A stretch of DNA of 64,000 nucleotides, from contig OZ024757.1 of the NCBI GenBank assembly GCA_964016885.1, forward strand, positions 20,708,001 through 20,772,000, written 5' to 3'. The position numbers and the translations under genes were made by a program. Positions 32,029 through 59,506 of this stretch are shown piece by piece (position 1 is the stretch's first letter; each line of letters begins with the position of its first letter). Source of the DNA: Eledone cirrhosa. Taxonomy: Eukaryota. The notes under the pieces were generated by a model. It was not told where the DNA came from. It saw nothing but the letters and a program-made list of their open reading frames with translations, and made no database searches.

Positions 32029-32089
32029 TATTTTATCTGATGAGAGCGTATCAAAGTTTTGCTACCCTTGAAATATATATAATAGAATA
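32029..32089 (+). ncRNA. Type I hammerhead ribozyme, family B
   Basis: Same fold as 23569-23629. Confidence 0.72.
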
Positions 32090-57220: not shown

Positions 57221-57408
57221 CTCCATTAATTACTCCATTGTATTACAATCATTTCAGAGGGCAAAAATAGAATATATTGATCAGTAGACTAATCAATAGC
57301 AGTTATTCACCTCCAAACCATTAGCCTCGAAAAAACAACATAAAAAAAACATCCATTTTACCAACTACCTTTAGTAACATACATATCATCATATATATAT
57401 ATATATAT

Positions 57409-57610
57409 AGGAAACAGTATGACCCCGACGGCAGAGCTCAAGCCGTTTCAACGGCTATTTCTGGACTAAATTAGAATTCTAATTTAGTCCAGAAATAGCC
57501 GTCAAAACGGCTTGAGCTTTGCCGTCGGGGTCATACTTTTTCCTATTACCCACAGTATTGAGTACTCTGGTGCGTTATGGTCCATCTGGTTCCTTACCAC
57601 AATTCCTTCG

Positions 57611-57612
<2 letters not shown>
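57409..57612. mobile_element. Fold-back TA-inserted element, family P
   Basis: ~135-bp near-perfect palindrome centred on gaattc, plus family tail. Confidence 0.88.
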
Positions 57613-57667
<55 letters not shown>

Positions 57668-57953
57668 CAAATAACGAAACGAAATTAAATTTCGCTTCGT
57701 TTGTAACTCACTTTTGTATGACTGACGTTTAAACAATTAAGTTAAAAATGTACATCCACATATGTATACTGAAATATTAGTATGCATATGAATACACACA
57801 CGTGTACATATGTAGATGTACCGAGTTTTTCACTGGACACTTTACTGTGAGTGTTCAGCTATTCTGTATGTAAACACACAGTAAACCGGTTTTTAGAGTC
57901 ATACTGGTTTTCGAGGAAACACCTTTCCTCTATTCTCCAGAAAGCCAGACAGG

Positions 57954-57998
57954 AATATTGAACTAGTTTCGATGTTGTTACATCTCATCAGCAATATT
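57954..57998 (-). ncRNA. Type I hammerhead ribozyme, family G (cleanest fold)
   Basis: AAUAUUG-CUGAUGA-GAUGU aaca ACAUC-GAAA-CUAG-UU-CAAUAUU. Confidence 0.88.
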
Positions 57999-58248
57999 TA
58001 CCTATTCCGGCCTTTCTAGAGAATCGTAAAAGCACATATCGTTATATGCTTTTTCTATGAAAATTAGTAGTGGGCAGACTAATTTGCATAGAGCGTGAGT
58101 ACGTACCAGTTCAGCGGAGACGATAAAAACAAATAACGAAACGAAATTAAATTTCGCTTCGTTTGTAACTCACTTTTGTATGACTGACGCTTCATATGCA
58201 TACTAATATTTCAGTATACATATGTGGATGTACATTTTTAACTTAATT

Positions 58249-58301
<53 letters not shown>

Positions 58302-58376
58302 TATACTATCCAGAAAAAACTTGAACCGTTAAGGTATTTTTTCTTGGTTATGTCAAAATTTATAAAACAAACTTTG

Positions 58377-58437
58377 TATTTTATCTGATGAGAGCGTACC
58401 AAAGTTTTGGTACCCTTGAAATATATATAATAGAATA
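58377..58437 (+). ncRNA. Type I hammerhead ribozyme, family B (best stem II)
   Basis: UAUUUUAU-CUGAUGA-GAGcGUACCAAA gu UUUGGUACcCUU-GAAA-UAUAUA-UA-AUAGAAUA. Confidence 0.8.
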
Positions 58438-58491
58438 AATATGGTTTTATAAATATAGTTTCCATTTATTTAATATGATTGTATATATATG

Positions 58492-58888
58492 CGAGGGTAA
58501 TCCCAAAAGTAAGGTCTCCAAAGCGATGGGAACGCAGAGAAACTGTTTGTACGGCTGTTGGCAACATTGTTGTGATTGGTGCTCCCTTCACTCCCAAACA
58601 AGCATGCGTGCGCTTCGCTGGGATGCTCAATCTTGGCTTGGCAGCCGTTGAGAATGGAGCTCCCGTTGAACACTACCGCAGCCATGTGCGAATTTCGCGC
58701 AGTTATTATATAGAGGGCAATCCCAAAAGTAAGGTCTCCTTCCGAGGAAAACATGCGTAAAGATCGGCGGATCACTCTGGGTGCTCTCTGCCTTTTGGTT
58801 CCTGAGGTTTCCCGAAGCACCATCCACAGGATTTTAACGGAAAAGTTGCAATATCGGAAGGAGACCTTACTTTGGGGGATTGCCCTCG
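58492..58888 (+). mobile_element. Mariner-derived MITE with three TIR copies
   Basis: cgagggyaatcccaaaagtaaggtctcc at 58492 and ~58712, inverted at the 58888 end; transposase remnants CEFRAVI and DRRITL..VSRSTIHRILTEKLQYRK. Confidence 0.85.
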
Positions 58889-59021
58889 TATATATATATA
58901 TATATATATATAAAGATGGTCTGCGCATGTACAAAGATGCTATAGGGAAAAAGAAGTTGCCATTGGCTCATTGGCTGCTATGAGGAGCCCACCTTGTAAA
59001 ATGGTATTGCATTAAGGAATC

Positions 59022-59170: not shown

Positions 59171-59506
59171 TATCATCATCATCATTTTACGTCCACTTTT
59201 CCCTGCTTGCAAGGGTGGGACAGGAACTGATTCTGGCTTGATTTCTACAGCTGGATGCCCTTCCTAACACCAACCTCATTTACAGTGAGTGCTGGGTGCT
59301 TTTTTCCGGGACACCTCCACGACCACTTTGCAGTGGAATGATAGGGACCCCAGTCCCTGTCATCTCATTTCTACAGCTGAGTAAACTGGAGCAATGTGAA
59401 ATAAAGTGTCTTGCTCAAGGACACAACACATCACCCGGTCTGAGAATTGAACTCACAACCTTTCGATTGCAAGCCCAATGCTCTAACCACTAAGCCATGT
59501 GCCTCC
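59171..59506 (-). mobile_element. SINE family B, full length
   Basis: Family consensus. Confidence 0.92.

What the first reader, a model, noticed from the sequence alone, without database searches (positions are those of the whole stretch)
57660..58252. Complete hammerhead unit with direct plus inverted terminal repeats (pseudo-LTR-like)
Seen: about 68 bp at 57660-57728 recurs directly at about 58123-58189. The next ~61 bp (57731-57791) recurs inverted at 58191-58252. The cleanest hammerhead (57954-57998, minus strand; 7-bp stem I, 5-bp stem II, palindromic ACUAGU stem III) lies between them, and the whole is bounded by (TA)n. Inference: this is a ~460-nt monomer copied slightly more than once, as expected from reverse transcription of a circular or tandem RNA, followed by an end inversion. 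It is the best candidate for a retrozyme-like non-autonomous element.
Basis: partly seen in the sequence, partly recalled or inferred. Interest (0 to 1): 0.75.

Follow-up and report, generated by a model that had tools for sequence, protein, structure and literature searches.

The report
Penelope-inserted two-armed hammerhead repeat copy
This is one short copy of a young, very common protein-free repeat that carries a predicted self-cutting RNA; its copies sit as two back-to-back arms ending at two fixed points about 70 bases apart, the footprint likely left by Penelope-type jumping-gene enzymes, and each unit carries a motif like the one in front of the host's U6 RNA genes that would let it switch itself on.

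Summary
Observation confirmed: 70-bp direct repeat (69/70), 63-bp inverted repeat (63/63), type I hammerhead on the minus strand, (TA)n flanks. It is a short copy of a young 461-468-bp non-LTR retrozyme family (9,276 matches to its ribozyme). The repeats are not LTRs or TIRs: the insertion is two head-to-head arms. In 42 of 49 two-armed loci one arm ends at unit position 294-301 and the other at 220-233, never the same class twice; inner ends scatter. That is the Penelope tail-plus-inversion footprint, so start points are fixed, not permuted. Arms cross the predicted cut site exactly and share haplotypes. A modest A>G excess in shared variants fits an edited circle, but 6 of 19 testable loci do not fit a pure monomer circle. 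Each unit has a U6-type upstream motif (5 of 5 host Pol III genes, 0 of 7 U1/U2), with TATA spacing about 5 nt short. This copy has one ribozyme, so it cannot release a monomer itself. No RNA data; no autonomous partner matched by sequence. The scan found the same system before on other DNA.

The parts
57661..58192 (-). Long arm: 532 nt = unit positions 231-462 then 1-300 (1 = first base after the predicted cut, window 57960); 3' end at 57661 points into the left (TA)n
58191..58253 (+). Short inverted arm: unit positions 169-231; 3' end at 58253 points into the right (TA)n; 2-nt overlap with the long arm at 58191-58192
57661..57729 (-). Tail (unit 232-300): stretch between the two fixed outer ends of the family; holds a 13-bp hairpin and a T5 run; repeated at 58123-58191
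57954..57998 (-). Type I hammerhead with 2-bp palindromic helix III; predicted cut between 57961 and 57960 (GUU here; 137 GUC and 59 GUU among 196 sites in the mapped loci)
58079..58090 (-). 12-nt motif matching the upstream element of host U6, U6atac and RNase MRP genes (PSE-like)
58042..58048 (-). TATA-like box 42-43 nt after the PSE-like motif (host genes: 47-49)
57744..57748 (-). T5 run (unit 213-217), possible Pol III stop; second T5 at 57663-57667 (unit 294-298)
   Evidence: role inferred
57612..57661 (.). Left (TA)n target microsatellite
58252..58305 (.). Right (TA)n target microsatellite

Best explanation
This is a short copy of a young, non-coding, multicopy hammerhead repeat (a non-LTR retrozyme) whose insertions are two head-to-head arms with fixed outer ends in (TA)n, likely made by a Penelope-type reverse transcriptase/GIY-YIG endonuclease priming one RNA from both sides of a DNA break. 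Steps. Shown: family, arm layout, fixed ends, shared haplotype of the arms, exact passage through the cut site, U6-type motif. Inferred: (1) the motif plus TATA-like box starts transcription 50-57 nt before the cut site, and read-through of tandem units gives multimers; (2) the hammerheads cut as dimers and some monomers are ligated to circles; (3) the Penelope enzyme cuts (TA)n and starts one cDNA at unit 294-300 and the other at 221-233; (4) both run 5'-ward, often past the cut site, stop at scattered points and are joined by 1-7-nt microhomology; (5) arrays then grow locally by block duplication. The template is most likely a ligated circle in most insertions and an uncut multimer in some (about 0.5 for this mixed reading). 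The window copy is a 532-nt plus a 63-nt cDNA.
For: Multicopy and young: 311 matches from 39 of 790 candidates, mostly 97-99% identical, in 463-465-bp arrays; 9,276 ribozyme matches, control 0. Of 67 mapped loci 49 are two-armed; 42 have one end at 294-301 and the other at 220-233, none has two of a class; 2 run off the fetched DNA, 5 have one irregular end; all 18 other loci have an arm ending at one of the two sites; 84 of 95 flanks hold (TA)4; 31 of 49 inner joints overlap. This is the tail plus inverted 5'-truncated copy of PLEs (PMC8557442), explained by two RT start sites (PMC11167929). The genome holds young RT + C-terminal GIY-YIG elements that also end in (TA)n at two points about 40-65 nt apart by eye, one family with a palindromic-helix-III hammerhead. 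Arms of one locus differ by 1.1%, loci by 3.6%. In the 23 pattern-chosen two-armed loci 14 long-end and 18 short-end arms cross the cut site; 190 of 190 junctions with both anchors have exact length. RNA-sense A>G is enriched among variants shared by units (22 vs 9 T>C; private 31 vs 48; Fisher p 0.003-0.02 over three settings), as A-to-I editing before copying would give. Rare variants fixed in all units of both arms, e.g. L145 4 of 4, L155 6 of 6, fit a one-unit bottleneck. U6-type motif: 5 of 5 Pol III promoters, 0 of 7 U1/U2; the unit scores 22.8 bits, best of 270 window tiles 10.7, of 400 shuffles 14.9; kept in sister families. Unit folds at z -9.3.
Against: No autonomous element shares sequence with the unit among 50 GIY-YIG loci, so the partner is unassigned. 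Tail of 69-74 nt is longer than the published 30-40. A pure monomer circle fails where a derived base is shared by the outer long-end unit and the second short-end unit but missing from the outer short-end unit: 7 sites in 6 of 19 loci, against 1 and 1 for the other two patterns (noticed by eye first). Long arrays show 2-, 4-, 5- and 6-unit block repeats, so unit number is not proof of rolling copying. The A>G signal was absent in a first, cruder test (4 vs 6), and related loci are not independent. TATA spacing is about 5 nt short of host genes, and two T5 and two T4 runs would hinder Pol III read-through. Transcription, cleavage and circles are untested.
Confidence: 0.85

Rival explanations
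1. Same element and enzyme, but the template is always an uncut linear read-through multimer; circles, if made, are a side product. A source arm ending at 226 offers the 300 site only in its second-last unit, which would leave the outer short-end unit as the odd one.
For: 7 sites in 6 of 19 loci show exactly that pattern, the mirror pattern 1 site in 20 loci; L044 fits both starts in one unit. In vitro the anole PLE used unprocessed RNA (PMC11167929). Weak excess of inner ends at the predicted start of transcription: 7 of 124 against 3.5 expected, p 0.06. Block duplications can rebuild array length.
Against: Rare and edit-like variants fixed in every unit of both arms; no strong pile-up of inner ends at any RNA 5' end; L042, L145 and L170 fit only in part; arm-to-arm gene conversion could mimic the pattern; 6 vs 1 loci is p 0.125 by my arithmetic.
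Confidence: 0.3
2. One reading: one pass round a circle from an arbitrary start, then a fold-back inversion at the end.
For: The window copy alone (1.15 units plus 63 nt inverted) fits.
Against: Outer ends are fixed and always of opposite class (42 of 42 classifiable pairs); the inverted arm often holds sequence missing from the other arm (L148: 72 vs 479 nt).
Confidence: 0.03
3. The unit is only the pseudo-LTR of an autonomous Penelope element, and these loci are its 5'-truncated insertions.
For: Same end anatomy; Xenopus retrozymes are homologous to pLTRs.
Against: Arrays of many units with no frame over 60 codons; no mapped arm ran from the unit into an ORF flank in the loci shown; no homology to 50 GIY-YIG loci. 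Only 150 of 10,595 GIY-YIG candidates were scored, so an ancestor may exist.
Confidence: 0.07
4. A DNA transposon (MITE) or a satellite spread at the DNA level, with an incidental hammerhead.
For: Inverted repeats, TA flanks, fixed ends; local block duplication is real.
Against: The two termini are different sequences, the inverted part varies from tens to thousands of bases, inner ends scatter; ribozyme stems covary and 170 of 180 cores are intact; strand-biased A>G.
Confidence: 0.02

Closest known systems
Metazoan non-LTR retrozymes (Cervera and de la Pena 2020, PMC7229834, parts 2-4 of 6 read; Li, Clavereau and Pollet 2026, 10.64898/2026.07.22.740005, parts 1-3 of 5 read; review PMC7761336, passages)
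   Same: Non-coding tandem units of a few hundred bases, one type I hammerhead per unit, GC under 50%, strongly self-paired, co-occurring with PLEs that are proposed to move them.
   Different: The parts read describe no two-armed insertions with paired fixed ends; the review says retrozymes do not seem to harbour promoters, while this unit has a U6-type motif; unit is longer than the 170-400 nt of the 2020 paper; circles are not shown here.
Penelope-like elements, EN+ clades (Craig et al. 2021, PMC8557442, passages; Frangieh et al. 2024, PMC11167929, parts 1-2 of 4; Cervera and de la Pena 2014, PMC4209133, part 1 of 4)
   Same: Partial tandems, inverted 5'-truncated copy, tail between two RT start sites, (TA)n or AT-rich targets, hammerhead with palindromic helix III predicted to work as a dimer.
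   Different: No ORF; tail 69-74 nt rather than 30-40; both arms can hold several whole units; no sequence link to a coding PLE found.
Newt satellite 2 and schistosome hammerhead satellite (Coats 1994; Ferbeyre 1998; seen only as cited in PMC2220036; originals not held)
   Same: Hammerhead repeat with a promoter inside the unit (snRNA type in newt, Pol III in schistosome).
   Different: Here the motif matches host U6/U6atac/MRP genes, not U1/U2; function untested; Penelope-type ends were not mentioned in the passage seen.
LINE-1 twin priming (recalled, no call)
   Same: Two target ends prime one RNA and give an inversion joined by microhomology.
   Different: Both start sites are fixed and internal, the arms overlap in sequence and can each exceed a unit.

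Membership tests
Metazoan non-LTR retrozyme | Type I hammerhead in each unit of a tandem repeat | tested here: met
   170 of 180 anchored units have an intact core; arrays; covariation
Metazoan non-LTR retrozyme | Short non-coding unit, GC under 50% | tested here: met
   461-468 bp; 169 of 462 bases G or C; longest stop-to-stop frame 60 codons
Metazoan non-LTR retrozyme | No LTR architecture | tested here: met
   The direct repeat is overlap of a tandem unit and varies among copies; PBS/PPT not searched
Metazoan non-LTR retrozyme | Highly self-paired RNA | tested here: met
   -152.9 kcal/mol, z -9.3, 0 of 100 shuffles
Metazoan non-LTR retrozyme | Two consecutive ribozyme units (active copy, Li et al.) | tested here: not met
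   This copy has one ribozyme; the family meets it at other loci. It is a monomer-class copy.
Metazoan non-LTR retrozyme | Self-cleavage and expression as linear and circular RNA | not testable with these tools
   No RNA holder listed
Penelope-like element (autonomous) | RT plus GIY-YIG ORF | tested here: not met
Penelope-like element (insertion footprint) | Inverted 5'-truncated copy at the 5' end | tested here: met
   49 of 67 loci two-armed
Penelope-like element (insertion footprint) | Tail between two fixed 3' ends | tested here: met
   42 of 49 pair 294-301 with 220-233; longer than the published 30-40 bp
Penelope-like element (insertion footprint) | Microsatellite or AT-rich target | tested here: met
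   84 of 95 flanks
Penelope-like element (derivative) | Sequence homology to the pLTR of a coding PLE | tested here: inconclusive
   None in 50 GIY-YIG loci out of 10,595 candidates
MITE / DNA transposon | Terminal inverted repeats of fixed length | tested here: not met
   Termini differ, inverted length varies
Plant LTR retrozyme | Type III hammerhead in LTRs | tested here: not met
   Type I topology, no LTR
Type 3 Pol III (U6-like) promoter | Upstream element as in host U6, U6atac, MRP | tested here: met
Type 3 Pol III (U6-like) promoter | TATA at host spacing (47-49 nt) | tested here: not met
   42-43 nt in this and the sister family

The most novel reading that the evidence does not exclude
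A self-transcribing ribozyme retroelement: each unit carries a captured U6-type promoter, the RNA is A-to-I edited, and a Penelope RT dimer copies it from both ends of a break at two fixed sites, using circles and uncut multimers alike; the genome keeps an in-register record of which RNA unit each enzyme started on, which makes the template question decidable from sequence.
Probability: 0.3. Interest if true: 0.75.

Novelty: new variant of a known kind. Interest (0 to 1): 0.5.

Why it matters
Papers propose, from shared ribozymes, co-occurrence and pLTR homology, that Penelope elements move animal retrozymes through a circular RNA, but the parts read show no insertion footprint. Thousands of young copies with paired fixed ends give that footprint, name the two priming sites for an in vitro test, and let one ask whether the template is a circle or an uncut multimer. 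The U6-type motif offers an answer to how such repeats are transcribed, which a review left to read-through. The window copy itself is ordinary within its family.

Tried and rejected
Random permutation of start points: rejected. Pile-up of inner ends at the cut site, expected of cleaved linear templates: not seen, 0 of 89 within 3 nt, 1 of 124 after refinement; three apparent cases were query-edge artefacts. Pile-up at the predicted transcription start: inconclusive. Special meaning of the 70-bp direct repeat: not supported. GUU as a private defect: rejected, it is a common allele. Autonomous partner: a 30-nt 80% match in three PLE loci fell in A-rich sequence and was dropped. A Pfam accession recalled for PLE proteins was not in the library; GIY-YIG was used. 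Rfam did not detect the ribozyme. Expression: no RNA holder listed; the four runs laid are contigs of unrecorded kind and only show presence, in a second organism too. Plain local alignment of snRNA upstream DNA to the unit was not significant; the motif emerged from comparing promoters. 13 further U6-like and 4 U6atac-like hits without the motif were left out of the profile as probable pseudogenes (judged by eye), and one more from the L218 array as redundant. First A>G test was null; the subfamily-aware test was run after reading earlier notes. Searches for prior description: searches found no paper on this family or on two-armed retrozyme insertions; subscription papers and supplements (Li et al. 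tables, closed; Cervera 2020 Fig. S9 and Craig 2021 File S1, not opened) could hold such data. Three primary papers were not held.

Full report
Observation. The direct repeat is 70 nt with one mismatch and 462-nt spacing, the inverted repeat 63 nt and perfect, both bounded by (TA)n. The minus strand holds a type I hammerhead with 7-bp stem I, 5-bp stem II and a palindromic 2-bp helix III, predicted to cut between 57961 and 57960. As a monomer the predicted fold does not form helix III; two copies pair through it (-21.2 against 2 x -8.9 kcal/mol), the dimer arrangement described for such ribozymes (PMC4209133). Across 11 hand-picked variants the core is invariant and 7 of 14 pairs change on both sides; slid controls fall to 27-52% paired (the rows are related, so this is support, not a probability).

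Family. The unit is abundant and young: 311 matches from 39 of 790 candidates, mostly 97-99% identical and in tandem; 9,276 matches to the family's ribozyme and 23,413 to the wider type, controls 0. Natural units are 461-468 bp, have no frame over 60 codons and fold far better than shuffles (z -9.3). I number the unit in ribozyme sense from the first base after the cut. The host is not given; earlier notes call it an octopus, which I did not test.

Insertion anatomy. I mapped 67 loci: the window, 24 chosen from the best DNA hits and 42 from the first 100 of 264 hits of a tail pattern; both sets are selected. 49 are two arms joined head to head with 3' ends pointing out. In 42 one arm ends at 294-301 and the other at 220-233; none pairs two ends of a class; 2 run off the fetched DNA and 5 have one irregular end. 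All 18 other loci have an arm ending at one of the two sites. Inner ends scatter over the unit, 31 of 49 joints overlap (mostly by 1-7 nt), and 84 of 95 flanks hold (TA)4. The window copy is a 532-nt arm (231 to 300 of the next round) plus a 63-nt arm (169-231). This is the PLE footprint: partial tandems, an inverted 5'-truncated copy and a tail (PMC8557442), the tail being the stretch between two RT start sites (PMC11167929). The genome has young RT plus C-terminal GIY-YIG families that end in (TA)n at two points about 40-65 nt apart (read by eye). None of 50 such loci shares sequence with the unit, so the partner is unassigned.

Template. The arms come from one source: 1.1% apart against 3.6% between loci; in 66 of 88 arms the partner is within the closest tenth. 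They pass the cut site: 14 and 18 of 23 pattern-chosen arms of each class do, with exact junction length in 190 of 190 anchored cases, and inner ends do not stop there. Cleaved linear monomers are therefore not the usual template. For a circle: rare variants fixed in all units of both arms (L145, L155, L135) and an RNA-sense A>G excess among variants shared by units (22 vs 9 T>C, private 31 vs 48; weaker at other settings, 32 vs 19 and 32 vs 20), though a cruder test was null and relatives are not independent. Against a pure monomer circle: in 6 of 19 loci (7 sites) a derived base is shared by the outer long-end unit and the second short-end unit but absent from the outer short-end unit, against 1 site for each other pattern and 1 for the mirror case. 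An uncut transcript of a source arm that ends at 226 predicts this; arm-to-arm conversion predicts symmetry. I noticed the pattern by eye and the numbers are small. Long arrays also carry 2- to 6-unit block repeats, so array length alone does not show rolling copying. I read this as circles in most insertions and uncut multimers in some.

Promoter. Five host Pol III genes (three U6 loci, U6atac, RNase MRP) share a 12-nt motif at -77 to -79 with TATA 47-49 nt on; 0 of 7 U1/U2 promoters have it. The unit carries it on the ribozyme strand (22.8 bits; best window tile 10.7; best shuffle 14.9), as do sister families; the motif followed by a ribozyme core has 19,609 matches, control 2. The predicted start lies just before stem I. 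Against: the TATA-like box is 42-43 nt on, and T5 and T4 runs would slow Pol III read-through. A review states that retrozymes seem to lack promoters; newt and schistosome hammerhead satellites are cited as having internal ones.

Comparison and verdict. It is a non-LTR retrozyme by every sequence feature tested; this copy, with one ribozyme, is not an 'active' dimer by the criterion of Li et al.. It works like a non-autonomous PLE but is not a coding PLE, an LTR retrozyme or a MITE. Six literature searches found no description of this family or of paired fixed ends in retrozymes; unseen supplements and subscription papers could. Earlier notes of this scan report the same anatomy, promoter motif and editing marks on other DNA; they are not independent support, and the in-register departures from a monomer circle were not in the lines shown. 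Class: new variant of a known kind; interest 0.5.

Noticed in passing
window 57407-57611: Second two-armed short element in the same (TA)n chain: 70-nt inverted arms, the right one extended by about 65 nt, the same tail layout; very high summed depth in runs X1-X3.
   Followed up: no
window 58306-58480: A different hammerhead family directly right of the finding (plus-strand core 58385-58429, palindromic helix III); siblings at 32037, 23621 (minus) and 47457.
   Followed up: partly
window 58490-58890: Element with inverted ends and an internal 27-nt direct repeat (58493, 58713); ends look mariner-like (recalled, untested).
   Followed up: no
window 59440-59497: tRNA-like stretch on the minus strand, probably the head of a SINE.
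   Followed up: no
L121:6970-8001: Sister retrozyme family, about 77% alike in the promoter and ribozyme blocks, with a (TA)n run inside its unit of about 510 bp and compensatory changes in stems I and II.
   Followed up: partly
L114, L115, L118, L124, L126: Young RT + GIY-YIG family with a palindromic-helix-III hammerhead shortly after a CCAAT/TATA-like region; L126 is itself a near-perfect 3.3-kb palindrome. Family of L111/L112 (938- and 844-codon frames) showed no canonical hammerhead in my scans.
   Followed up: partly
L156:1744-2843: One insertion outside (TA)n has the same 6 bases on both sides, a possible target-site duplication.
   Followed up: no
unit position 25 (window 57936): Three different substitutions at one base, each shared by most units of a locus (L032, L045, L047); could mark an RNA modification or an RT error hot spot.
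   Followed up: partly
G000:C1:21716275 and C1:22607353: Another repeat with the U6-type motif whose TATA lies at about host spacing, unlike this family.
   Followed up: no
L201-L203, L246-L256: Host U1 and U2 genes have a TATA-like box near -31 and a different upstream motif near -58.
   Followed up: no
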